In this document: piece by piece, positions 959 through 32,334 of the stretch
How positions within the stretch are numbered: position 1 is the stretch's first letter
Layout of the letters: each line of letters begins with the position of its first letter
Assembly: GCA_965261735.1 (NCBI GenBank)
Contig: OZ253470.1
Coordinates: forward strand, 1,120,001-1,184,000
Source of the DNA: Alphaproteobacteria bacterium
Lineage (GTDB): Bacteria; Pseudomonadota; Alphaproteobacteria; SHVV01
Reading direction: 5' to 3'
Length of the DNA: 64,000 bases
Made by a program: the position numbers and the translations under genes
Notes under the pieces: model-generated
Told to the model about the DNA's origin: nothing
Seen by the model: only the letters and a program-made list of their open reading frames with translations
Databases searched by the model: none

Positions 959-1978
959 ATGGATGTTCTCGACCGCGCCGATCTCCCATTCCCGCATTCG
1001 CTACCCGAGTTCCAGCGACTTTTCCCCGATGATGCGGCCTGCGCCGCCTACCTGGAGAAAGCCCGCTGGGGAGACGGCTTTGCCTGCCCGCACTGCGGCA
1101 CGGCGGGAGAGCCGTTCCACTTTGAAAACCGCCCTGGCGTCCTGCGCTGCCGCAAGTGCCGCCAGAACACCGGGCTGACGGTGGGAACAGTGATGGAGCG
1201 TAGCCACACTCCGCTGAACGTCTGGTTCTGGGCCGCTTATCTGGTCGCCAGTCAGACGCCCGGCATGTCCGCCGTGCAGTTTCAGCGGCAACTTGGTCTT
1301 TCGCGCTACGAGACGGCCTTTCAAATTCTCCACAAGCTCCGCTCGGGCATGGTGCGGCCCAACCAAGACAGGATCGGTGGACAGCCCAAGAACCATGTTG
1401 AGGTGGACGAAACCTGGGTTGGCGGGCGAACGCGTGGGGAAGGCCGTGGTGTTCACCACAAGGTTCCCGTCTCCTGTGCCATCGAGGTGCGTCATCGAAA
1501 GCCGGGCACCAAGCTCGACAACCGGAAAGACGGACGCTATGCCGGACGCGTTCGGCTCGCCGTCGTGCTCGACCGTAGCGCCGAGTCGCTCTGTGGGTTC
1601 GTCGAGAGCACCGTCGCGCCGCGATCGCTGACCGTTACTGACGATTGGAGCGGCTATGCTGGCCTCGGTAAGCGCGGCTATGAGCACTTCGCTGTTGCCG
1701 AGCGTGGTGATCCAGAGGTTGCCGAGCAATACCTGCCGATCATCCATCTGGTTTTCGCCAACCTGAAGACGTGGCTGATCGGTATCCACCACGGCGTTAG
1801 CCACCAGCACCTACAAGCCTACCTCAACGAGTTCACCTTCCGCTTCAACAGGCCGTTCTACCCGTTCAACGCCTTCCGCTCATTGCTCGGCATCGCGGGC
1901 GACACCTCTGCTCCAACCTATGCCGAGCTTTACTCGGGAGAGTGGTGGCACCCTACATGTAGCGGTCATGGGCGTTAA
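959..1978 (+). CDS. IS1595-family (ISXO2-like) DDE transposase
   Basis: N-terminal Zn ribbon CPHC...CRKC, VEVDETW, TDDWSGY, YLNEFTFRFN. Confidence 0.95.
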   Translation: MDVLDRADLPFPHSLPEFQRLFPDDAACAAYLEKARWGDGFACPHCGTAGEPFHFENRPGVLRCRKCRQNTGLTVGTVMERSHTPLNVWFWAAYLVASQTPGMSAVQFQRQLGLSRYETAFQILHKLRSGMVRPNQDRIGGQPKNHVEVDETWVGGRTRGEGRGVHHKVPVSCAIEVRHRKPGTKLDNRKDGRYAGRVRLAVVLDRSAESLCGFVESTVAPRSLTVTDDWSGYAGLGKRGYEHFAVAERGDPEVAEQYLPIIHLVFANLKTWLIGIHHGVSHQHLQAYLNEFTFRFNRPFYPFNAFRSLLGIAGDTSAPTYAELYSGEWWHPTCSGHGR

Positions 1979-5621: not shown

Positions 5622-6890
5622 GTGGACGACGACGCGTTCCTAGCCTTCCGGCGGCAAACCTACGCGCAGCTGCGCCGGGCGTCGGACCGCGTGCGCAACG
5701 AGTTCATCCCCGACTTCGCCGCCCGAGGCGCACCGACCCGCGAGGCGTTCTACGCCATCAACCGCGGCTATTTCGTGGACGACGTGTTGCGCGGCCAGAT
5801 GGTCAGCGAGAGCGACGCCAAGAGCTTCGCGGCCGACGGCGCCAAGGACCCGTTCTACGTCACCGCGCTCGATGACCTCGGCGGTCCGCCGGCCGGGCGC
5901 GGCAACGCCGGCGGGTTCGAGACACTGCATCCGCGCTTCGCGGAAGCCGTCGTCGCCCGGACCTTCGCCGCGCTGGACGCAGCCGGGCCCTTCGAGGACG
6001 AGGAGGCTTTCCTGCGGGTGCTCACCCTCGTCGACTTCCTGCTGCAAGTCGCCCACTTCGCGAAGGACGGCAGCGGGCGCAGCGGCGAGGACCTGCTGGT
6101 GCTGCTCGGCGAGCGCCATGGCACGCCGCTGACGTTCTCGATCACCGGCTACCGCGGTGCGATCGAGGGTCCGGGGCGGCTCATGTCGCTGCGCCACGCC
6201 ACCCAGAAGATCGCCCAAGTCGAGATCTCGCGAAACTTCTTCGGCTCCCTTGGCTTGAGCCCGCCCGAGGCGACGCCGACCCATATCCGCGACCTGCTCG
6301 AGAGCCTAGTGCGCGTCGGTCGAGCCGCGGGTTCGGGTACCCGCCAGGCGCGCTTGACTTGGCCCGACGGCCTCGGCGGCACCATCGAGGAGATCTTCGC
6401 TCCGCTGGCGCCGGGCGACGACGGGGGCGACCCCGACCTGGCGCGTACCCATCCCTACCGGCTCTACGCGAGTTTCCTCGCCCGGGAGGCGATCTACCTA
6501 ACGCTGTGCCTGGCGGAGCCCGAACGGCTCACGCCGGGCCTGTGCGCGCGCTACCCCCTGTCGATGGCCTGCCGCGCGCGCGACCTCCGGGGTGCCCGGC
6601 GCCATGCGTACCTGGCGGTCCCGGCCCGGGCGGCCGAGGCTGCCGACGAGGCGGTGGCGCGGCTCGAGCTTGTGCGCCGTGGGAAGCTCGCGCACGAGGA
6701 TGCCGAGTTGGCGCGGCTACTCGAGCAGCTCGCGCACCCGGCTCCCCGCCTGGCCGACCTCATCGCCGCTGAGCGTGACTTCGCGCCGCTGGAGGCACTG
6801 CTCGGCCGCCTCCGCCTGTCGGTCACGCCGGCGGTGACGGCGGAAGAGGTGCGGCAAGCTGTTCTCCGCGATCTCAAGATCGTGCCGGAG
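5622..6890 (+). CDS. Hypothetical protein with divergent Fic/Doc-like motif (3' end uncertain, no stop before 7541)
   Basis: HFAKDGSGRSGE at 6054-6089 has the spacing of HPFxDGNGRxxR. Coding-like composition fades after ~6890. Confidence 0.55.
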
Positions 6891-6891
6891 T

Positions 6892-6908
6892 CCGGCACCG
6901 GTTTTGCA
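6892..6908 (+). promoter_or_regulatory. Candidate sigma54 (-24/-12) promoter
   Basis: CCGGCACCGGTTTTGCA versus consensus YTGGCACG-N4-TTGCW, with correct GG-N10-GC spacing. Confidence 0.4.
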
Positions 6909-7053
6909 CAAGGCGCGACTATCGACGAGCGAGCAACCGAAGTCACTCGCGGCAATCCGGCCGCGCGCAGAATTCCAGCGGGCCAAATCCTGAAGTGTTC
7001 CGAACCGGCCCGCGCTTGCCGGCGCGCGGCGATGCGCGCTACAACGAGCGGCG

Positions 7054-7541
7054 ATGGACCAGGGTGCTATCTTCGGCCTGCAGTTCCTGCTGAGCCTGAT
7101 CGTCTACGCTCTGATCGCGAGGTGGTTCGTGGCGCCCTGGCTCGCGGCAAAGCCCGTCGAGCAGGCGCTGGTGCCGCTCATCCTGCCGCACGCGTTCCGC
7201 CACATCGGGCTCACGTTCCTCGTGCCGGGCGTCGTCGCCGCGCCCCTGCCGCCTGCGTTCGCCAACCCCGCCGCCTACGGCGACCTCACCACCGCCGTGC
7301 TCGCCATCGTGGCGCTTGTCGCCCTCCGTGGACGTTGGACGGTGGCACTACCGCTGGTGTGGCTGTTCAACCTCGTCGGCACCGTGGACTTGCTCTACGC
7401 CGTGATAGGGGCTTCACGGTCGATGCGCAGCAGAACATGGGCGCGACCTGGTACATCCCGACCTTCATCGTCCCCCTGCTGCTGGTGACCCACGTCATGG
7501 TCTTCGCCCGCCTCCTGCGCCCAAAGTCGGCCACGCCCTAA
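7054..7541 (+). pseudogene. Integral membrane protein with a -1 frameshift near 7405-7411
   Basis: N-terminal hydrophobic frame (HAFRHIGL.FLVPG...PAAYGD) switches to another frame for AQQNMGATWYIPTFIVPLLLVTH. The paralogous fragment at 12392 has the missing base. Confidence 0.75.
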
Positions 7542-7653
7542 TCTTGATCTCGCAAGAGGGCGCGGCGGCGACCGCACGGCACCGAAAAGGCGTCGAGCGA
7601 CCTGGAATTCCGATTCCAACGTACCCATGTTTTTGGGGGATTACAAAGAAACG

Positions 7654-7682
7654 TTGACATTATCTAGTCCAGCCCCTATATT
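7654..7682 (+). promoter_or_regulatory. sigma70 promoter with its -35 inside the left TIR
   Basis: TTGACA-17 bp-TATATT upstream of the transposase. Confidence 0.7.
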
Positions 7683-7700
7683 CAGAGTGTCGGGGGGAGA

Positions 7701-8675
7701 GTGGAAATGGCGAAGAATGCACCCGGAAAAGCCCATCGCGAGGGACTCACCGTCGTCGAACTGATGGACATGTTCCCGACCGAGGAAGCAGCGACTAAGT
7801 GGTTTGAATCCATCATCTGGCCGGATGGTCGCCATTGCCCAAAATGCGGCTCGGTCCGTACCCGCGAAGCCTCTCACAAGTATATGCCTTATTGGTGCAC
7901 CGATTGCCGCTCCTACTTCTCGGTGAAGACGGGAACCGCCATGCAGGCATCGAAAATCCCGATGCGGAAATGGGCGATTGCCATTTACCTGTGCCTGACT
8001 TCGCTCAAGTCGGTTTCGTCCATGAAGCTGAAGCGTGACATCGGCGTTTCGCAGCCGTCGGCGTGGTTCATGATGCAGCGCATTCGGGAAGCCTGGGGCG
8101 GGGAAGGCGAAGGCCCGTTCGATGGTCCGGTCGAGTTTGACGAAAGTTATTTCGGCGGAAAGCGCAAGAACAAGTCGAACGCCCAACGGGTCGAAGCCAC
8201 CGGGCGTGGCCCTGTGGACATGACGGCGGTGGTTGGCGCGAAGGACCGGGCGACGAACAAGGTCAACGCCCGCGTAATCAAGGACATCGACAAGGATACC
8301 CTGCAAGACTTTGTGGCCAAGAATGCCGAGCCTCACACCGTGGTTTACACCGACGACGCAGCGGCTTACGAGGGCATCCCCAACCCGCATGAAAGCGTCA
8401 AGCATTCGGTCTCCGAGTACGTTGACGGAATGGCCCACACCAACGGCATCGAATCCTTCTGGTCGATGCTGAAGCGCGCCCACAAGGGAACCTTCCATAA
8501 GATCAGCCCGAAACATCTGCAACGCTACGTCTCCGAGTTTGCTGGCAAGCACAACATCCGCGACTCAGGAACGCTTGCCCAAATGCACGATACCGTCGCC
8601 CGTCTCATCGGGCGCAACCTTCTCTACCGCGACCTGGTCGCCAGCAACGGGCTTTCGAATGCGAGCCGGTCGTAA
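7701..8675 (+). CDS. IS1595-family transposase (distinct from the 3-copy element)
   Basis: CPKC...CTDC Zn ribbon, VEFDESYFGG, VYTDD, HTNGIESFWS, YVSEF. Confidence 0.95.
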   Translation: MEMAKNAPGKAHREGLTVVELMDMFPTEEAATKWFESIIWPDGRHCPKCGSVRTREASHKYMPYWCTDCRSYFSVKTGTAMQASKIPMRKWAIAIYLCLTSLKSVSSMKLKRDIGVSQPSAWFMMQRIREAWGGEGEGPFDGPVEFDESYFGGKRKNKSNAQRVEATGRGPVDMTAVVGAKDRATNKVNARVIKDIDKDTLQDFVAKNAEPHTVVYTDDAAAYEGIPNPHESVKHSVSEYVDGMAHTNGIESFWSMLKRAHKGTFHKISPKHLQRYVSEFAGKHNIRDSGTLAQMHDTVARLIGRNLLYRDLVASNGLSNASRS

Positions 8676-8768
8676 CGGATCGACACGGCGAAACAGCGCG
8701 CGCACCAGCGTCTCGGGCGTCGCGCCAACCAAATCCACCTTCGGATCAAGCTTCGGCATGTATTTCAT
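8565..8768 (-). CDS. Small passenger ORF (67 aa), antisense-overlapping the transposase 3' end
   Basis: ATG overlaps the methylase stop (ATGA). Sequence MKYMPKLDPKVDLVGATPETLVRALF... Confidence 0.5.
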   Translation of the reverse strand: MKYMPKLDPKVDLVGATPETLVRALFRRVDPLRPARIRKPVAGDQVAVEKVAPDETGDGIVHLGKRS

Positions 8769-10189
8769 GTTGCAGCCCTCCATTCAGCCATGGTCTTGCC
8801 GCCCTTGCTGCGATTACAGCCCGAGCAAAGTAGTTGCAGGTTGTCGGTGTGGTCGGTGCCGCCCTTTGACCGGGGCAGGATGTGGTCAACGTCCATCACC
8901 CGGAACGGGAAGTGAGTCTCGCAGCCGACACACACGCCTTCCTGTTCTCCGTAGAGGCGGTGGCGGTGCGTCCGGTAGTTCGGAAGCTTGCCTAGGTCAG
9001 TGCGCTTAGGCGCCTCCGTGAGCGCTGTAGCTCCACCCCAAGGCATTTTGCCGCGATCCTCGGCGATCCGTTCGTCTACCAGCTTGATCGCCAGCGGAGA
9101 CAGGTCGACACCCGCCCACTCCCGTTGGAGCCGATCCGCCGCAACAAGGGCCGTGGCGCAACCACAGAAGGGGTCCAGCACCATGTCGCCGGGGTCGGTA
9201 CTAGCGAGTATCACGCGCTCCAGCAATGCGAGGGGCTTTTGTGTCGGATATCCCGTGCGTTCCTTTGCCTGCGAATTTACGGGCGGAATGTCAGTCCAAA
9301 TATCCGGCGGAACTTGGCCGGGACTGGCGGCGAGGTAGCGTTTCAGTTCCGGCGTTCCGTTCGCGGTGAATTCGATCAGGCCCGCCTCGTGCAGCATATC
9401 GAGCCGCGCGAGGATACTTGTTTCGCCGCGGTAGCCGGGGATCAGGTTCGCCTCGATCCACGCCGCGTAATCGCCGATCTTCGGCACGCTCCAACAGCGC
9501 CCAATATCGGTCGGGTTCCAGCCGCGCCACGGTTTCCCGGCCTCGCCGTCGCTCGTCTTGGGGCCGGTCAAGTTGTCCCGGCGATATTGTCCCCGGTCAT
9601 CCACATGGCGGTATTTCGAGCGAACGTTGTCATCTGACAGGGGAACCCTCACCCCGCCGCGGCGGATGTCCGAGCCGTAGAGCAGCAGCCGATCCCCAGT
9701 ACGGCCAAACCGGCCCGCGTCATTGTGATTGCCGATCCGCTTCCAGACGATCTCGTTGCGGAACGCGGACACGCCGAACACGGCATCCATAAGTGTCCGA
9801 AGCCAATGCCCGGCGGCATCGTCGCAGTGGAGGTAGATCGAGCCCATGCCCTTGAGGATGCGGCGCATTTCCAACAGCCGGACGGCCATCATGATGAGGT
9901 AGGCTTGCATCGGCTTGCCGTGCGCTTGCCGCGCTGCTTCAATTACCGAGTGGGCGGCAGGGTGGCGATCCGCCAGTTCACCGTGTTCGTGGACATCAAC
10001 ATCGCTCAACGTCCAAGCGTCTTTGAATGCGGCGCCGGCGGCCTTACTACCTATCGGCGCCTCATAATTTCGGTTCGAGTTGAACGGCGGATCGAGATAG
10101 ATCAGATCCACGCACGCATCGTTCATGCCCCGCATGATTTCGAGATTGTCGCCGGTCCACACCGTCCCGCTGGCGAAGTTAGCGGCCAT
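8765..10189 (-). CDS. N6/N4 DNA methyltransferase (beta-class motif order) fused to a C-terminal HNH endonuclease
   Basis: DLIYLDPPF, YPTQKPLALL, VLDPFCGCAT, then CVGC...DVDHILPRSKGG.D..DNLQLLCSGCNRSKG. Confidence 0.92.
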   Translation of the reverse strand: MAANFASGTVWTGDNLEIMRGMNDACVDLIYLDPPFNSNRNYEAPIGSKAAGAAFKDAWTLSDVDVHEHGELADRHPAAHSVIEAARQAHGKPMQAYLIMMAVRLLEMRRILKGMGSIYLHCDDAAGHWLRTLMDAVFGVSAFRNEIVWKRIGNHNDAGRFGRTGDRLLLYGSDIRRGGVRVPLSDDNVRSKYRHVDDRGQYRRDNLTGPKTSDGEAGKPWRGWNPTDIGRCWSVPKIGDYAAWIEANLIPGYRGETSILARLDMLHEAGLIEFTANGTPELKRYLAASPGQVPPDIWTDIPPVNSQAKERTGYPTQKPLALLERVILASTDPGDMVLDPFCGCATALVAADRLQREWAGVDLSPLAIKLVDERIAEDRGKMPWGGATALTEAPKRTDLGKLPNYRTHRHRLYGEQEGVCVGCETHFPFRVMDVDHILPRSKGGTDHTDNLQLLCSGCNRSKGGKTMAEWRAAT

Positions 10190-10754
10190 GGGGTGGACCA
10201 CTCCGAACAGTTGCCCAATAGGTATCGTCAATACTCCTGCCTATGATGAACCCATTCCTTATCGTTATAAACCCCCGATTCCAGATAACCTTCAATTCAC
10301 ACTTATACTCCCCAGGCTCTATAGTTATATTCTTTGATTGGTCGTTTATTGTTGCCTTTGGTTGTCCCGCTTCTTGAAAACATATAACAGCAATTCCAGG
10401 AAGTCCTGCGTCCAAATTCACACGCAGAGAAGGGGTGCCGCTCTCTACATTGATCGTCGGCCTTATCTTGTCCCCGACTAGCGATCCCCTCCCGCCCTCT
10501 CTAATGGTAGCAAACGCGCATAGGTTGTTGGCGGTTTCACGGTAAGCAAGTTTTTTTCTCCATCCCTTGACGGGATCGTTCGCTATGAAACACTTCAGAC
10601 CAACGCCACTTTCTCTTCTGTCGACCGTAAACGTCAAACTTATAGCGGGCTTCCCCCACCACATTTGGAATGCGGTCGGCAGAGTCACAAGGCCAATCCC
10701 AAAAGCGACGCCCGACAGGACCACGTCCGTCCATCCCAACCATTCTGGCACCAT
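10179..10754 (-). CDS. Hypothetical passenger protein with N-terminal TM helix
   Basis: 191-aa ORF of lower GC with a hydrophobic N-terminus. Its stop overlaps the methylase start by 11 bp. Confidence 0.7.
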   Translation of the reverse strand: MVPEWLGWTDVVLSGVAFGIGLVTLPTAFQMWWGKPAISLTFTVDRRESGVGLKCFIANDPVKGWRKKLAYRETANNLCAFATIREGGRGSLVGDKIRPTINVESGTPSLRVNLDAGLPGIAVICFQEAGQPKATINDQSKNITIEPGEYKCELKVIWNRGFITIRNGFIIGRSIDDTYWATVRSGPPHGR

Positions 10755-10899
10755 CCCCCCATCATGCGGATTCCCCGTTCGGCGTCAACGTTTCTTTGTA
10801 ATCCCCTGTTTTTGAGGCGGCTTGGCCGCCGCCATTTTCATTTGACTTGCCGTCGACCCGGCGCAGGATGACGGTAAAGCATTGATGCGGGGGGAGCGT

Positions 10900-12327
10900 A
10901 TGTCCTTGGCCGGTTCAGCGACACTGAAGGAAGCAGCCACGCTAAGTGGATGCACGGACGAAGAGCTAGCGCGCTTTGGCGAGAGCCTGCGGGCGCTGTC
11001 GCTGCACCAGGCCACGCGGATCAACCCCTTTGCGTTCGCCGAAGCGGCCGGCCTCGCGTCGGAGACGGCTGTAGATATCTTCGTCCACGGCGCCAAACTC
11101 GGTCTGTTCGACCTCGAATGGGGCATGGTGTGCCCAATGTGCGGCGCCATCACCAACAGCGTCGCTCGGCTCGACAACGTCGAGGAAGATGTTCTGTTCT
11201 GCGCGCAGTGCGCCCGCGATGCGCCGTCGGTCCTGGACGACACGGTCGAGGTCACCTTCGCCTACAACCCGGGCGCCGAAACCTTCGACATGCACGGCGA
11301 CTTTCCGAGCTACCTCGAGTACCACACTTCCTCGAGCTATCCCTATCGCGAGGGCTGGCAGGGCTACCATAAGCGCCACACGGTGGCCGACATCAAGCTC
11401 GGCATCGGCGCGAGCGGCGCGCTGACACTACCGTTAGAAGCCGGGCAAACATACCGGCTGGTGTGCCTCGACACCCATTCGGGGGCGATGCTCGAGGTCG
11501 CGCAGGAAGGGCAGGCGGCGGACGGCGCGAAAGTCGAGGTGACACTCTCGGACGCCGGCTTTTCGCGGGATAGCCTAACTTTGCCCCCAGGCAAGTCGAC
11601 GCTCTCGCTCACCAACCTCACCGACCAGCCGGTATGGTGCTGGGTGGTGCGGCGCAACTTCGATGAAGCGATGGCGATCATGAAACAGATGCCGCCACCG
11701 TTCGGTCGGCGCCTCACCGGCAAGCACCTACTCAACAACCAGGCGTTTCGCGACACCTTCGCGTTGCACGAGCTGGCGCCCGACCTCAAGCTCAAGCTAC
11801 GCAGCATTACCCTACTGTTCACCGACCTCAAGGGCTCCACCGCGCTCTACGACCGCGAGGGCGACCTAGCCGCCTATCGGTTGGTGCAGGACCATTTCGT
11901 TGCGCTGAAGAGGGTCGTGCGCACCCACTCGGGCGCCATGATCAAGACGATGGGCGATGCCGTGATGGCCGCGTTCCCGGACGGCAGCGACGGGACCGCC
12001 GCGGCGATCTCCATGATGACGGCGATGCGGAACCTGGCCGGAGACATCCAAAGCAACGAAATCGGCCTCAAGGTCGGCCTCCACGCCGGGCCGGCACTGG
12101 CGATCAACTCCGGCACCAGCGTCGATTATTTCGGTCAGACCGTGAACATCGCCGCGCGCGTACAGAGCCTTGCCGACGCCGGCGACATCTGTGTCACGGG
12201 GGCGTTGAACGAAGAGGAAGCGATCCCGGCGTTGCTCACCGATGCCGGCTATACCGGCTACTCAGAGATGGCCAAGCTCAAGGGCGTATCGGCCGAAGAG
12301 AAGGTCTTCCGCTACCGCCCGGCCTAA
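10900..12327 (+). CDS. Adenylate/guanylate cyclase with N-terminal DUF5939-like domain
   Basis: CPMCG...CAQC N-terminus, LLFTDLKGSTALY, KTMGDAVMA, KVGLHAG, DYFGQTVNIAARVQ. Confidence 0.9.
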   Translation: MSLAGSATLKEAATLSGCTDEELARFGESLRALSLHQATRINPFAFAEAAGLASETAVDIFVHGAKLGLFDLEWGMVCPMCGAITNSVARLDNVEEDVLFCAQCARDAPSVLDDTVEVTFAYNPGAETFDMHGDFPSYLEYHTSSSYPYREGWQGYHKRHTVADIKLGIGASGALTLPLEAGQTYRLVCLDTHSGAMLEVAQEGQAADGAKVEVTLSDAGFSRDSLTLPPGKSTLSLTNLTDQPVWCWVVRRNFDEAMAIMKQMPPPFGRRLTGKHLLNNQAFRDTFALHELAPDLKLKLRSITLLFTDLKGSTALYDREGDLAAYRLVQDHFVALKRVVRTHSGAMIKTMGDAVMAAFPDGSDGTAAAISMMTAMRNLAGDIQSNEIGLKVGLHAGPALAINSGTSVDYFGQTVNIAARVQSLADAGDICVTGALNEEEAIPALLTDAGYTGYSEMAKLKGVSAEEKVFRYRPA

Positions 12328-12358
12328 ACCGCCATCGGTCGGGCCAACCCCGGACATC

Positions 12359-12388
12359 GGCTGTCGCAGCGCTGGCTGTCGCAGCGCT
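12359..12388 (+). repeat. 15-bp tandem duplication
   Basis: ggctgtcgcagcgct x2. Confidence 0.9.
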
Positions 12389-12391
12389 AGC

Positions 12392-12523
12392 GTGGCTGTT
12401 CAACGTCGTCGGCACCGCGGACCTGCTCCACGCCGTGTTCCGCGGCTTCATGGTCGATGCCCAGCAGACCATGGGCGCGGCCTGGTACATCCCGACCTTC
12501 ATCGTCCCCCTGCTTCTGGTAAC
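12392..12523 (+). repeat. Diverged internal copy of 7359-7489 (membrane-protein gene fragment)
   Basis: About 130 bp align at roughly 90% by hand count. No start or end of the gene is present. Confidence 0.9.
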
Positions 12524-30084: not shown

Positions 30085-32334
30085 TCAGTCTAGATCAATC
30101 TCGGGCCTATGGGAACCCGATCGGGGTGTACCCGCGGGGCCTTCGTAGTTCGCACCGTTGAGCGCCATCCACACGAGATTGTCGAAATGGTGGGTGCCGT
30201 GCTCGCTCTGCCACGAGCGCTCCGCATCGACCATGAGGCGACTCTGCGTGTAGCCGCGCGAGCGCACGCCCTGCTGCTGGCGTTCGATGGCGCTGATGTC
30301 TTGGGGCCAGACGACATTGCTGTAATTGTTCATTTGGCCGACGTCGTACGCGGTCGGCGGGTCGTTGAGGCAGAAATTGACGATGTGGCGGGTCGAATGG
30401 TCGGCGTCGTCGGCGAGAGCGTGCAGTATCTTGAAATTACTCGGCCCCTGGTGGGCGACGAAGATCAGGTTCGGCCACAGAAACCAGATGTAGACGTCAC
30501 GCAAGCCGCCCTCGCCGAAGTCGTAGGGCAGCTTCTCCTTGTTGCGCTCCATCATCTCGTAGTTGCCGCGAATGATGTGGCTTGCCTATCCGGTTAACGC
30601 CCATGGCCGCTACATGTAGGGTGCCACCACTCTCCCGAGTAAAGCTCGGCATAGGTTGGAGCAGAGGTGTCGCCCGCGATGCCGAGCAATGAGCGGAAGG
30701 CGTTGAACGGGTAGAACCGCCTGTTGAAGCGGAAGGTGAACTCGTTGAGGTAGGCTTGTAGGTGCTGGTGGCTAACGCCGTGGTGGATACCGATCAGCCA
30801 CGTCTTCAGGTTGGCGAAAACCAGATGGATGATCGGCAGGTATTGCTCGGCAACCTCTGGATCACCACACTCGGCAACAGCGAAGTGCTCATAGCCGCGC
30901 TTACCGAGGCCAGCATAGCCGCTCCAATCGTCAGTAACGATCAGCGATCGCGGCGCGACGGTGCTCTCGACGAACCCACAGAGCGACTCGGCGCTACGGT
31001 CGAGCACGACGGCGATGGCACAGGAGACGGGAACCTTGTGGTGAACACCACGGCCTTCCCCACGCGTTCGCCCGCCAACCCAGGTTTCGTCCACCTCAAC
31101 ATGGCTCTTGGGCTGTCCACCGATCCTGTCTTGGTTGGGCCGCACCATGCCCGAGCGGAGCTTGTGGAGAATTTGAAAGGCCGTCTCGTAGCGCGAAAGA
31201 CCAAGTTGCCGCTGAAACTGCACGGCGGACATGCCGGGCGTCTGACTGGCGACCAGATAAGCGGCCCAGAACCAGACGTTCAGCGGAGTGTGGCTACGCT
31301 CCATCACTGTTCCCACCGTCAGCCCGGTGTTCTGGCGGCACTTGCGGCAGCGCAGGACGCCAGGGCGGTTTTCAAAGTGGAACGGCTCTCCCGCCGTGCC
31401 GCAGTGCGGGCAGGCAAAGCCGTCTCCCCAGCGGGCTTTCTCCAGGTAGGCGGCGCAGGCCGCATCATCGGGGAAAAGTCGCTGGAACTCGGGTAGCGAA
31501 TGCGGGAATGGGAGATCGGCGCGGTCGAGAACATCCATGGCGCGCTCCCCTATATCCGGGTTGCGCCCATTCTAGCCCTAGTGGGTGTGGGTGTAAACCG
31601 GATAGGCAAGTGATGTGGGTCGTCCAGTACTCGTGCTCGATCGATTCCCAGCTCGTCTCGACGTAGCCGTTTCCCGAGCCCATGAGCTGCGGATGCAACG
31701 TCGGGCAGTGGTAGCACTCGAGCCCGTCGAGGATGAACTTCCAGTTGGCCTTGATATCGAAGCTCTCGCGACGCACGCAGGTCAGGGCATCGAAATCTGG
31801 GATCACCGTCCGGAGCTCGTCGAGGAGCCCGGCGGCGATATCGGCGAGCGGGGTAGCGTCCGGGTCGAAATTGACGAACACCATCGGTCCGAGTTCGGCA
31901 ACGCCGATCTCGGGAAGGCAGAAGTCTTCGTGCTCGAACCCGGCGACGTTCTCAGAGTTGCCCGCGGCCTTCAGGTTGCCCTCGAGATCGTACGTCCAGG
32001 CGTGGAACGGGCAGGTGATCATCCGCGTATTGCCCTTGCCCTCGAGCAGGATATGACCGCGGTGCATGCAGACGTTGTAGTAGGCCCGCAGGCGCCCATC
32101 CTTGGCACGGACGACGAACACAGGCTGATCGATCAGGGTGAAGGTGATGTAGTCGCCGGGTTCCCTTAGGTCCTGGAGGTTGCCCACATACTGCCAGGTC
32201 TTGAACCAGATCTCTTCCTTCTCGCGCTCGAAGATCCCGCGATCACGATAGTAGGTCCCGGGCAGCGTGTAGGATAGTGCCGGATCGGGATGGAATCGGC
32301 CGGTGGTTCCCGGCTCAGGCAGGCTCGACGCCAT
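30085..32334 (-). pseudogene. CntA-like Rieske oxygenase disrupted by IS1595 copy 2
   Basis: Removing 30581-31610 and one TSD rejoins ...WTTH/IIRGNYEMME... into a 403-aa frame. Confidence 0.93.
30581..31610 (-). mobile_element. IS1595-family IS copy 2 (1030 bp; 75-bp internal deletion)
   Basis: TIRs cttgcctatccggtt, TSD TGATGTGG (30573-30580 and 31611-31618). Transposase 30594-31538 lacks 25 aa. Confidence 0.96.

What the first reader, a model, noticed from the sequence alone, without database searches (positions are those of the whole stretch)
7636..10806. Complete IS1595 transporter IS carrying a coupled TM-protein / methylase-HNH / small-ORF operon
Seen in sequence: perfect 23-bp TIRs, an exact 8-bp TSD (TGTTTTTG) and an intact transposase. 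A convergent three-gene passenger unit is translationally coupled (11-bp overlap, then an ATGA overlap). Both TIRs contain an inward-facing TTGAC, so each end could supply a -35 box: TTGACA-17-TATATT for the transposase and TTGACG-16-CATGAT for the cargo. Established: IS1595-family elements make 8-bp TSDs and some carry passengers. Inference: this is a self-mobile, minimal modification/restriction or addiction cassette that may spread an epigenetic mark or anti-phage function.
Basis: partly seen in the sequence, partly recalled or inferred. Interest (0 to 1): 0.82.

Follow-up and report, generated by a model that had tools for sequence, protein, structure and literature searches.

The report
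Mobile IS1595 element carrying methylase-nuclease fusion
This is a complete, recently mobile 3.2-kb insertion sequence that carries a DNA methylase fused to an HNH nuclease, and the same fusion gene rides in related insertion sequences in several bacterial phyla, so it looks like a minimal self-moving DNA-modification module whose function is still untested.

Summary
There are perfect 23-bp TIRs (7636-7658 / 10784-10806), an exact 8-bp TSD (TGTTTTTG), an intact IS1595 transposase, the stated gene overlaps and both promoter-like sites.

New evidence:
- Contigs of two other public runs join window 7627 directly to 10807. This is the empty site with one TGTTTTTG, so the 3171-bp unit inserted as a whole.
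- Among 54 loci that encode relatives of the methylase-HNH fusion, 12 lie inside IS1595-type TIR pairs and 11 of those have exact 8-bp TSDs. They show two gene layouts and come from Alpha- and Gammaproteobacteria, Chloroflexota and Acidobacteriota.
- On a tree of the fusion the layouts interleave, and DNA similarity between backbones stops at the fusion ORF. The fusion is therefore a modular cassette that has been captured or exchanged repeatedly.
- The "small ORF" is not cargo. It is a conserved coding gene of the transposase backbone, antisense to the transposase 3' end, and it always starts with an ATGA overlap on the upstream gene.
- The TM protein fills a variable slot.

The function (a restriction-modification-like or addiction module) remains an inference. 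Verdict: a real element, a new variant of a known kind (transporter IS), of moderate to good interest.

The parts
7628..7635 (.). Left copy of the 8-bp target-site duplication TGTTTTTG
   Evidence: The empty-site contigs of runs X5 and X8 hold a single copy.
7636..7658 (+). Left terminal inverted repeat (23 bp, begins GGGGATTAC, ends TTGAC)
   Evidence: (I1). Related tips GGG(G/A)ATTA occur in 12 elements of other genomes.
7654..7682 (+). Promoter-like site TTGACA-17-TATATT for the transposase; the -35 lies inside the TIR
   Evidence: 11 of 12 positions. Consensus match only.
7707..8675 (+). IS1595-family DDE transposase, 322 aa, with N-terminal zinc ribbon
   Evidence: At most 40% identical to any transposase on PLSDB plasmids.
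8565..8768 (-). Small backbone gene (67 aa). The first ~31 codons lie outside the transposase ORF; the remaining 110 nt are antisense to its 3' end. It starts with an ATGA overlap on the upstream gene.
8765..10189 (-). Methylase-HNH fusion, 474 aa: beta-class N6/N4 DNA methyltransferase with an inserted target-recognition region and a C-terminal HNH nuclease
9262..9808 (-). Variable middle of the fusion (residues ~128-310), the probable target-recognition domain
   Evidence: Against L029, L037, L034, L043, L042 and L028, DNA similarity is lost here and kept on both sides. A shorter middle occurs in ~399-aa relatives.
8804..8932 (-). HNH core (CxxC ... DH ... N ... CxxCN..K), invariant in the family
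   Evidence: invariant C420, C423, D435, H436, N450, C455, N459, K462. PDB matches to Cas9, group II intron and McrA HNH domains.
10179..10754 (-). 191-aa membrane-anchored protein (helix 4-33, then a beta-sandwich). It is the occupant of a variable cargo slot. GC is 0.47-0.53.
10761..10788 (-). Promoter-like site TTGACG-16-CATGAT for the cargo operon; the -35 lies inside the TIR
   Evidence: 9 of 12 positions. Consensus match only.
10784..10806 (-). Right terminal inverted repeat (23 bp)
10807..10814 (.). Right copy of the target-site duplication TGTTTTTG
10816..10833 (+). Host terminator-like hairpin immediately right of the insertion (context). The IS separated the upstream host gene from it.
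   Evidence: In the empty-site contigs it follows 7627 + TGTTTTTG directly.

Best explanation
SHOWN. Window 7636-10806 is a complete, autonomous transporter IS of the IS1595 family. It inserted as one 3171-bp unit into an A/T-rich 8-mer between a host gene and its terminator, duplicating TGTTTTTG.

Its backbone consists of the two TIRs, the transposase and a small gene that runs antisense into the transposase 3' end. Between the right TIR and that small gene lies a cargo slot. Here the slot holds a membrane-anchored beta-sandwich protein and a methylase-HNH fusion. All three minus-strand genes are joined by overlapping stop and start codons.

The fusion is a modular cassette. It recurs in IS1595 elements of several phyla in two layouts: convergent to the transposase, or directly behind it. 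It has been exchanged between backbones or captured more than once.

INFERRED (about 45% for this part). The fusion is a self-contained, sequence-specific modification-plus-nuclease enzyme, functionally like a one-chain restriction-modification system. The beta-class methylase with its swappable recognition domain marks the resident DNA, and the tethered HNH domain cuts or nicks DNA at or near unmarked sites. On this reading the IS carries its own epigenetic mark, plus either a defence benefit for the host or a cost for losing the element.

Also inferred: inward promoters whose -35 boxes sit in the TIRs drive the transposase from one end and the cargo from the other, and cargo transcription and translation running antisense through the transposase 3' end damp transposase expression.
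For: Identity and mobility:
- TIRs, TSD and an intact transposase.
- Empty site. In X5 record 18 and X8 record 25 (1871 nt each, from two studies), window 10807-11400 and 7451-7627 are contiguous in the contig, with 0-3 differing letters. X1 record 8 crosses the occupied right junction (10763-11400) with 0 differences.
- The element's GC is 0.47-0.64, against 0.66-0.72 on the left flank.

Recurrence of the fusion as IS cargo:
- 21 of 54 loci have an IS1595 transposase hit. 12 are TIR-bounded and 11 of those have exact 8-bp TSDs.
- L062 and L063 share an identical 2854-bp unit with different TSDs.
- A second, diverged copy in the window's genome (83%; transposase + small ORF + HNH tail) is cut by an IS6 element.

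Modularity:
- The window's fusion is sister (100/100 support, 84% identity) to L026's, which lies in the other layout with a 55%-identical transposase. Supported branches force at least 3 layout changes.
- DNA similarity to L026 spans only window 10184-8775, essentially the ORF.

Enzyme integrity:
- DPPF, TQKP, DPFxGCAT and the HNH residues are invariant in 116 and in 55 aligned sequences.
- The middle of the protein is swapped among relatives.
- The AF2 model has pLDDT 82, and its methylase part matches EcoP15I Mod, M.BceJIV, CcrM and RsrI.
- PADLOC MTase_II models match at 2.2e-55.
- There is no recurrent separate nuclease gene beside solo copies.

Small gene:
- It is open in 8 of 9 convergent elements, and all 8 start with ATGA.
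- Codon-position differences are 178/133/377 outside the overlap and 364/147/205 inside it.
- Its N-terminal 25 residues are nearly invariant in 30 sequences.

Promoter-like sites. TTGAC at the inner TIR edge is also seen in B, L015, L029, L037, L042 and L046.
Against: - No activity was measured: neither the methylated motif nor cleavage is known.
- Motif I reads GCA, not the usual GxG (alignment), although it is invariant in the family.
- Known one-chain R-M enzymes use a different architecture, so there is no precedent for beta-class methylase + C-terminal HNH. I found none among solved structures or in 7 literature searches.
- In a one-chain enzyme both activities decay together, which weakens a post-segregational killing model.
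- In the window's genome only 1 of 5 fusion copies is intact. L046, L058 and L062-64 also carry broken copies. The cargo is therefore often lost without killing the lineage.
- 33 of 54 loci have the fusion with no IS1595 transposase within the fetched flanks, and three Limisphaerales loci are syntenic chromosomal genes.
- The promoters are consensus matches only.
- The antisense-damping idea has no direct support.
Confidence: 0.55

Rival explanations
1. The fusion serves the element itself rather than acting as restriction-modification. The methylase marks sites in or near the element or its target, so that transposition or transposase expression is tied to replication. This is analogous to the way Dam methylation gates IS10 and IS50 (recalled knowledge). 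The HNH domain helps strand cleavage or repair during transposition.
For: - In the tandem layout the fusion is translationally coupled to the transposase: GTGA in L052 and L053, TTGA in L058, a 1-nt overlap in L027, or coupling through an ATGA-joined intermediate ORF in L026, L034 and L043.
- The association is specifically with IS1595 transposases, in two layouts.
- There is no partner nuclease or other defence gene nearby.
Against: - Related IS1595 elements without the fusion have clean 8-bp TSDs: B and D in this genome.
- 33 of 54 fusion loci have no IS1595 transposase.
- A swappable recognition domain fits diversifying specificity better than a fixed cis-acting site.
Confidence: 0.17
2. 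The fusion is itself a selfish, homing-like cassette. Its HNH nuclease opens DNA at sites that are left unprotected where the cassette is absent, and repair copies the cassette in. IS1595 elements are its preferred landing pads and vehicles.
For: - Similarity between different backbones is precise to the ORF.
- Layouts interleave on the tree, with at least 3 forced changes.
- Junctions are always tight stop/start overlaps.
- The HNH domain is of the type found in group II intron proteins and Cas9.
- The cassette spreads across phyla.
Against: - No conserved flanking homology or target sequence was found around the cassette.
- ORF-limited similarity may only reflect faster decay of non-coding DNA.
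- Solo chromosomal copies are syntenic in Limisphaerales.
- No precedent is known to me.
Confidence: 0.1
3. The fusion is only an orphan methylase that changes host gene expression or protects vehicle DNA from foreign restriction. On this reading the HNH domain is inactive or binds DNA only, and the element is an ordinary IS with hitch-hiking genes of no common purpose.
For: - Methylase-only relatives at 38-40% identity sit in Streptomyces phages and rhizobial plasmids.
- A few database relatives lack the HNH Pfam hit: P0067, P0080, P0100 and P0119.
- Copies decay frequently.
Against: - The HNH metal-binding and catalytic residues are invariant across 55-116 sequences that reach down to 62% identity, which indicates selection on the nuclease site.
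- The fusion architecture is kept in all but 4 of the 120 listed homologues.
Confidence: 0.13
4. The structure is a chance or assembly artefact: two unrelated IS ends, or a nested insertion, that merely bracket neighbouring host genes.
For: The genome is saturated with IS1595-family copies, with about 200 transposase hits. Stray ends are therefore plausible a priori.
Against: - The 23-bp TIRs are perfect, with exact 8-bp repeats on both sides.
- Contigs from two other studies lack exactly the bracketed 3171 bp plus one repeat.
- The same gene order lies inside the TIRs in L029, L037, L046 and L051.
Confidence: 0.02

Closest known systems
Transporter IS of the IS1595 family: tISCpe8, MTnSag1, ISNha5 (passages seen in PMC5704250 and PMC11891212; Siguier et al. 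2009 itself was not available to me)
   Same: IS1595-type DDE transposase, terminal inverted repeats, target duplication, and passenger genes between the ends that move with the element.
   Different: - The cargo here is a methylase-HNH fusion plus a membrane protein, not lincomycin resistance, mobilisation genes or a regulator.
- The cargo forms a convergent, overlap-coupled operon.
- A conserved small gene runs antisense into the transposase 3' end.
- The transposase is at most 40% identical to those on PLSDB plasmids.
IS220 (IS1380 family), cited as a tIS with a methyltransferase passenger (passage in PMC11891212)
   Same: An insertion sequence that carries a DNA methyltransferase gene.
   Different: It belongs to a different transposase family. 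Nothing in the passage I saw mentions a nuclease fusion. I could not inspect IS220 itself.
One-chain restriction-modification enzymes (MmeI-type Type IIG/IIC; the engineered Eco29kI R-M fusion, of which I saw only the search listing and abstract start of PMC3039593, PMC2582602 and PMC2731913)
   Same: Nuclease, methylase and recognition functions in one polypeptide, with no separate partner gene.
   Different: From recall, MmeI-type enzymes have an N-terminal PD-(D/E)XK nuclease, a gamma-class methylase and a C-terminal recognition domain. Here a beta-class methylase has an internal recognition region and a C-terminal HNH domain. Activity is untested.
Reader-plus-HNH Type IV enzymes: McrA, TagI, VcaM4I (passages in PMC12707154)
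   Same: A C-terminal HNH nuclease tethered to an N-terminal DNA-recognition module. The HNH domain matches McrA at E 1.4e-4.
   Different: The N-terminal module here keeps all catalytic methylase motifs, whereas those enzymes have a modified-base reader.
Beta-class N6-adenine methyltransferases: M.BceJIV, CcrM, M.RsrI, and the Type III Mod subunits of EcoP15I and Mbo45V
   Same: Motif order IV...I, DPP(Y/F) and TQKP motifs. Sequence E-values are 3e-16 to 1e-8 and Foldseek E-values 9e-15 to 1e-10.
   Different: None of these carries an HNH domain. The fusion's motif I reads GCA. Base and sequence specificity are unknown.

Membership tests
IS1595 family of insertion sequences | DDE transposase of the ISXO2/IS1595 type | tested here: met
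   PF12762 at 1.4e-37. NF033547 at 7.4e-54, covering 1-215 of 215 positions.
IS1595 family of insertion sequences | N-terminal zinc-ribbon of the transposase | tested here: met
   PF12760 at 3.1e-08, residues 24-68. C44, C47, C64 and C67 are invariant in 10 transposases.
IS1595 family of insertion sequences | Terminal inverted repeats | tested here: met
   23 of 23 positions complementary.
IS1595 family of insertion sequences | 8-bp target-site duplication | tested here: met
   TGTTTTTG on both sides. 8-bp TSDs also flank 2 further elements of this genome and 11 elements in other genomes.
IS1595 family of insertion sequences | Assignment to a named ISfinder subgroup (ISNwi1, ISPna2, ISSod11 and others) | not testable with these tools
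   ISfinder is not available here. The nearest PLSDB transposases are at most 40% identical and are annotated only as 'IS1595 family transposase'.
Transporter IS (tIS) | Genes unrelated to transposition lie between the ends | tested here: met
   The methylase-HNH fusion and the TM protein lie inside the TIRs.
Transporter IS (tIS) | The whole unit transposes | tested here: met
   Empty-site contigs lack 7628-10806 exactly. L062 and L063 are identical 2854-bp units at sites with different TSDs.
Type II restriction-modification, one-chain (IIC/IIG-like) | Methylase catalytic and SAM-binding motifs | tested here: met
   DPPF is invariant, as is DPFxGCAT, a variant of FxGxG. This is sequence evidence only.
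Type II restriction-modification, one-chain (IIC/IIG-like) | Nuclease domain with intact active site in the same chain | tested here: met
   HNH_5 at 5.5e-12. CxxC, DH, N and CxxCN are invariant. This is sequence evidence only.
Type II restriction-modification, one-chain (IIC/IIG-like) | MmeI-like architecture (N-terminal PD-(D/E)XK nuclease, gamma-class methylase, C-terminal TRD; definition recalled) | tested here: not met
   The methylase is beta-class, the variable region is internal, and the nuclease is a C-terminal HNH.
Type II restriction-modification, one-chain (IIC/IIG-like) | Cleavage of unmethylated recognition sites, blocked by its own methylation | not testable with these tools
   This needs enzyme assays or methylome data.
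Type IV modification-dependent HNH nucleases (McrA-like) | Modified-base reader domain fused to a C-terminal HNH | tested here: inconclusive
   The HNH domain resembles McrA (E 1.4e-4), but the N-terminal part looks like an active methylase.
Toxin-antitoxin / addiction module | A recognised toxin or antitoxin family, or killing on loss of the module | tested here: inconclusive
   The TM protein and the small protein have no Pfam, NCBIfam or PADLOC match. 4 of 5 fusion copies in this genome are decayed. Killing cannot be tested here.
Known anti-phage defence systems (PADLOC) | A complete system with all required genes | tested here: inconclusive
   Only methyltransferase models match (86 families, best 2.2e-55). 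The other three proteins scanned have no match.

The most novel reading that the evidence does not exclude
The methylase-HNH fusion is a new kind of one-chain, self-propagating modification-nuclease cassette that has formed a lasting partnership with IS1595 transposons. The cassette moves between IS backbones with ORF precision (homing-like or recombinational capture). The IS gives it cross-phylum mobility. The small gene antisense to the transposase 3' end is a previously undescribed transposition regulator of this IS lineage. Together they would form a minimal mobile epigenetic parasite that spreads a methylation mark through dense host-associated microbial communities.
Probability: 0.15. 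Interest if true: 0.8.

Novelty: new variant of a known kind. Interest (0 to 1): 0.58.

Why it matters
Restriction-modification genes have long been argued to behave as selfish mobile units, but clean natural cases in which the enzyme sits inside a small, demonstrably active transposon are few. This element offers such a case:
- It is 3.2 kb long, with known ends, a known empty site in sister strains and a single-gene methylase-nuclease.
- The same cassette occurs in at least 12 bounded IS1595 elements of four phyla.

That makes several questions directly testable in E. coli:
- Does a one-chain beta-methylase-HNH restrict DNA?
- Does carrying it help or stabilise a transposon?
- How does a cargo gene get swapped between IS backbones?
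- Does an antisense-overlapping small gene tune transposase expression?

It also flags a large family of uncharacterised enzymes with swappable recognition domains. All 8000 scored candidates matched, and the top 120 are 64-98% identical. These enzymes could be of use as reagents.

If the function turns out to be a plain orphan methylase, the finding reduces to a well-documented new transporter IS.

Tried and rejected
Searches and tests that led nowhere:
- Empty site in reference genomes: 41 relatives were searched with window 6600-11900. None is close enough (best flank match 76%), so no empty site could be read there. The sequencing runs gave it instead.
- Partner genes beside solo fusion copies: neighbouring ORFs of 28 transposase-less loci were clustered. 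There was no recurrent partner, only three syntenic Limisphaerales loci.
- TM protein function: no Pfam, NCBIfam or PADLOC match. The AF2 model is good (pLDDT 85), but Foldseek gives TMq of at most 0.38. The best VIA Z is 7.6, on generic Ig/FnIII-like sandwiches, which is within that tool's stated background. The Atlas gives only unnamed clusters.
- Slot proteins of different elements show no significant pairwise similarity and no Pfam family.
- Small protein: no Pfam match. It has 70 unnamed database homologues. The best Atlas score is 0.77, which is below the lead threshold.
- Complex prediction, transposase + small protein: the verdict was "no answer" (score 0.00), which is no evidence either way.
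- Rfam on 6500-12500 at E up to 0.1: 0 matches.
- Terminator scan: 2 sites against 3.4 expected. I make nothing of the weak minus-strand site inside the transposase gene.
- RNA run X17: its contigs (90-98% alike) lie on 7938-8486, 8705-9158 and 9666-10175. X17 shows no depth on the flanks or on 10234-10674. These are contigs of relatives in a library that may contain DNA, so I do not claim transcription of this copy, nor absence of TM-gene transcripts.
- Plasmid and phage collections: only methylase-only relatives at 40% identity or less. This concerns those collections only.

Literature: searches found no paper describing a methylase-HNH fusion as an IS1595 passenger. One search had 0 hits for four spellings of the fusion name. 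Subscription papers, including Siguier et al. 2009, and supplementary files were not seen and may list such passengers.

Considered and rejected:
- A nested or composite artefact (see rivals).
- The TTG at 10231 as the start of the fusion. The family's N-terminus aligns with the ATG at 10189.

Full report
**The observation.** The window holds a 3171-bp element at 7636-10806.
- Its ends are a perfect 23-bp inverted repeat, the longest inverted repeat in 7400-11100. The pattern occurs only at these two places in the 64-kb window, even with 3 mismatches allowed, against 0.00 expected by shuffling.
- TGTTTTTG stands directly outside both ends.
- The plus-strand ORF 7707-8675 is a full-length IS1595 transposase with its zinc ribbon.
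- Three ORFs lie on the minus strand: 10754-10179 (191 aa), 10189-8765 (474 aa; N6_N4_Mtase plus HNH) and 8768-8565 (67 aa). They are joined by an 11-nt overlap and an ATGA overlap.
- I take the ATG at 10189, not the TTG at 10231, as the start of the fusion, because the family's conserved N-terminus begins there.
They are pattern matches, not evidence of function.
- The element's GC is 0.56-0.64, and 0.47-0.53 over the TM gene. The left flank is 0.66-0.72.

**It moved as a unit.** Of the 24 public runs listed, 20 hold part of window 7000-11400, and they come from 10 studies. I laid four of them.
- In X5 and X8, which come from two studies, one 1871-nt contig aligns to window 11400-10807 at record positions 1101-1694 and continues at 7627-7451 at positions 1695-1871, with 0-3 differing letters.
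- The contig therefore skips 7628-10806. That is 3179 bp: the 3171-bp element plus one copy of the 8-mer.
- In X1 a contig runs from inside the right end (10763) to 11400 without a difference, so X1 has the occupied site.
- No same-genus reference genome was available, so the reference collection gave no empty site.

**A family of such elements in the same genome.** The window lies in a complete 5.03-Mb single-contig genome. A scan for the TIR with up to 6 mismatches found three more bounded elements:

| Element | Genome coordinates | Length | TSD | Content |
|---|---|---|---|---|
| B | 3675758-3677530 | 1773 bp | CATCGAAA | 76%-identical transposase, the same small ORF, a different 196-aa membrane protein, no methylase |
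| D | 2589787-2592037 | 2251 bp | TTTGTCCC | a diverged transposase and other small ORFs |
| C | 4334258-4335206 | 949 bp | no exact TSD | no transposase |

- A further copy at 4322981-4324219 is 83% identical over transposase, small ORF and HNH tail. An IS6-family element truncates it.
- The same IS6-plus-HNH-tail junction recurs at 446981-447268, where an IS3-type element cuts it again.
- tblastn finds 1 intact fusion gene and 4 fragments in this genome. It also finds about 200 IS1595-family transposase hits, most from one family about 25% identical to this one.

**The fusion recurs as IS1595 cargo elsewhere.**
- All 8000 scored database candidates matched the fusion. The 120 best are 64-98% identical, and 116 of them carry both domains. 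The few that are named are called only "DNA methyltransferase" or "hypothetical protein".
- A scan of one genome per species returned 54 loci. They are mostly MAGs of Alpha- and Gammaproteobacteria, Cyanobacteria, Chloroflexota, Verrucomicrobiota and Acidobacteriota, and some genomes hold several copies.
- 21 of the 54 loci have an IS1595 transposase hit within the fetched flanks.
- In 12 loci the fusion lies between GGG(G/A)ATTA-type inverted repeats: L026, L029, L034, L037, L042, L043, L046, L052, L058, L062, L063 and L064. All but L052 have exact 8-bp direct repeats, and these are mostly A/T-rich.
- L062 and L063 share an identical 2854-bp unit on one chromosome, flanked by different repeats.
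- 33 loci show no IS1595 transposase. Among the 28 of them whose neighbours I clustered there was no recurrent partner gene. Three Limisphaerales loci are syntenic, so they are ordinary chromosomal copies.

**Two layouts and a modular cassette.**
- In the convergent layout (window, L029, L037, L046, L051 and the relic L002) the order is TIR, membrane protein, fusion, small ORF, then the transposase on the other strand.
- In the tandem layout (L026, L027, L034, L043, L052, L053, L058, L059, L062-64) the fusion follows the transposase on the same strand. Its start often overlaps the transposase stop (GTGA, TTGA), or a 130-142-aa ORF joined by ATGA lies between them.
- I built a maximum-likelihood tree from 33 intact fusion proteins out of 55 (54 loci plus the window). 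The other 22 were left out because their frame is broken or they are fragments.
- The tree places the window's protein as sister to L026's (84% identity, 100/100 support), although L026 has the other layout and a 55%-identical transposase.
- Well-supported branches force at least 3 changes of each layout label, and phyla are mixed within the main clade.
- At the DNA level, similarity between the window's element and L026 covers window 10184-8775, which is the fusion ORF and nothing else.
- Against L028, L029, L034, L037, L042 and L043 only the two ends of the ORF match, and the middle (about 9805-9260, residues 128-310) is replaced. That is the pattern expected of a swapped target-recognition domain.

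**The small ORF belongs to the backbone.**
- It is open in 8 of 9 convergent elements examined; the exception, L042, has an unrelated 92-aa ORF there.
- In all 8 its ATG overlaps the TGA of whatever gene lies upstream. That gene is the fusion in 6 cases, the 196-aa protein in B, and another ORF in L074.
- A relative in genome G002 pairs it with yet another membrane protein of 210 aa.
- Outside the transposase overlap, pairwise differences fall 178, 133 and 377 at codon positions 1, 2 and 3, which is a coding signature. Inside the overlap they fall 364, 147 and 205, as expected if the transposase's wobble positions on the other strand dominate.
- The first 25 residues are nearly invariant in 30 sequences.
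- The family has 70 database members, none named and none with a Pfam domain.
- Its profile was found in 5 of 401 sampled genomes of the class, the window's own genome included.

**The proteins.**
- Fusion, sequence: DPPF, TQKP, DPFxGCAT and the HNH residues (two CxxC, DH, N) are invariant across 116 and 55 aligned sequences.
- Fusion, relatives by sequence: the methylase is closest to beta-class enzymes (M.BceJIV, CcrM, DpnA, RsrI, MboIIA, PvuII) and to Type III Mod subunits. The HNH is closest to Cas9, group II intron maturase and McrA domains.
- Fusion, structure: an AF2 model (pLDDT 82, pTM 0.79) matches EcoP15I Mod, M.BceJIV, CcrM and RsrI over the methylase part. No solved chain covers both parts.
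- Fusion, cultured collections: on cultured plasmids and phages only methylase-only relatives at 40% identity or less were found.
- TM protein: it has 13 homologues, with an invariant TLPTAFxMWWGxP motif after the helix. Its model (pLDDT 85) is an N-terminal helix plus a beta-sandwich, and the fold matches are only generic.

**How it most likely works.**
- Shown: an autonomous IS1595 element with a cargo slot, tight translational coupling, recent insertion, and a methylase-nuclease cassette that is shared among IS1595 backbones.
- Inferred: the cassette is a one-chain modification-plus-nuclease enzyme that gives the element a methylation mark and either defence value or a cost of loss.
- Also inferred: convergent expression from the two TIR-borne promoters, continued by translation of the small gene into the transposase 3' end, limits transposase synthesis.
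- Against a strong addiction role: the cassette is broken in 4 of 5 copies in this genome and in several other elements.
- Three rival readings remain open: a helper or regulator of transposition, a homing-like cassette, and a plain orphan methylase. Only enzyme, methylome and transposition assays can separate them.

**Comparison with the known.**
- Transporter ISs are an established idea for this very family. I saw passages in PMC3129680, PMC5704250 and PMC11891212 that cite Siguier et al. 2009, which I could not read.
- The passengers named in those passages are lincomycin resistance and mobilisation genes (tISCpe8, MTnSag1) and a regulator (ISNha5). A methyltransferase passenger is cited only for IS220, of the IS1380 family.
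- Seven searches found no description of a methylase-HNH fusion in IS1595 elements. Supplements and subscription papers were not seen.
- The R-M review mentions C-terminal HNH domains only in modification-dependent enzymes (passages in PMC12707154).
- I therefore file the element as a member of the IS1595 family and of the tIS class, since all testable defining features are met. I file the cargo as working like, but not belonging to, the known one-chain R-M families.

**Verdict.** This is a real, complete and recently mobile element. The functional reading is plausible but untested. I rate it a new variant of a known kind, with interest 0.58.

Noticed in passing
whole genome G000; in the window e.g. 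about 998-1849 (+) and 30717-31499 (-): The genome is saturated with IS1595-family transposase genes. There are about 200 tblastn hits, most of them near-identical 858-bp matches to one family about 25% identical to the transposase studied. This is a massive IS expansion.
   Followed up: partly
window 7407 and 7054-7541: The empty-site contigs of X5 and X8 have an extra G after 7407 that X1 and the window lack (table 4). With that G, the ORF starting at 7054 would read through to the stop at 7541. In the window it breaks into two frames. The host gene just left of the IS is therefore frameshifted in this genome, or there is an assembly indel.
   Followed up: partly
window 12385-12523 versus 7352-7489: An 88%-identical second copy of the 3' end of the left-flank gene lies just right of the DUF5939/adenylate-cyclase gene at 10900-12327. 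This suggests an older rearrangement or insertion around that gene.
   Followed up: no
G000:C1:446981-447268 (L004) and 4322981-4324219 (L002): The same IS6-family element abuts the same HNH-tail fragment at two distant places, with locus positions 1-1500 identical. In L004 the fragment is cut again by an IS3-type element. This looks like IS6-mediated duplication of a junction.
   Followed up: partly
G000:C1:4334258-4335206: A 949-bp element with IS1595-type TIRs (4 mismatches to the window's TIR), no transposase and no exact TSD. It may be a non-autonomous cassette.
   Followed up: no
G000:C1:2589787-2592037, and a third TIR at 2599965-2599987: Element D is 2251 bp long with TSD TTTGTCCC. It has a diverged IS1595 transposase and several small passenger ORFs. 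An extra matching right-end TIR lies 8 kb further on.
   Followed up: no
L062, L063, L064 (one Dehalococcoidia chromosome): Three copies of a tandem-layout element (L062 and L063 identical over 2854 bp; L064 99.5% alike with a rearranged left part), each with its own 8-bp TSD. In L062 and L064 (L063 is identical to L062) the fusion frame breaks near codon 184. This could be a frameshifted gene that still transposes, programmed frameshifting, or a long-read assembly error.
   Followed up: no
L026 5576-6004, L034 5481-5876, L043 from 5580: Tandem-layout elements carry a further 130-142-aa ORF between the transposase and the fusion. It starts with an ATGA overlap on the transposase stop. The copies are weakly similar to each other (E 0.005), and L026's has no Pfam family.
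   Followed up: partly
TSDs of 14 elements (window, B, D, and 11 in other genomes): The target duplications are mostly A/T-rich 8-mers although the host genomes are G+C-rich. Examples are AAAAAAAG, TTTATTTT, AAACAAAA and TAACAAAA. This suggests a target preference for A/T tracts such as terminator tails.
   Followed up: partly
table 2, window about 8323-8616 and 10087-10233: Summed contig depth over conserved parts of the transposase and of the methylase N-terminus reaches hundreds to thousands in X5 and X8, against about 10 on the flanks. Those metagenomes hold many related elements in other organisms.
   Followed up: no
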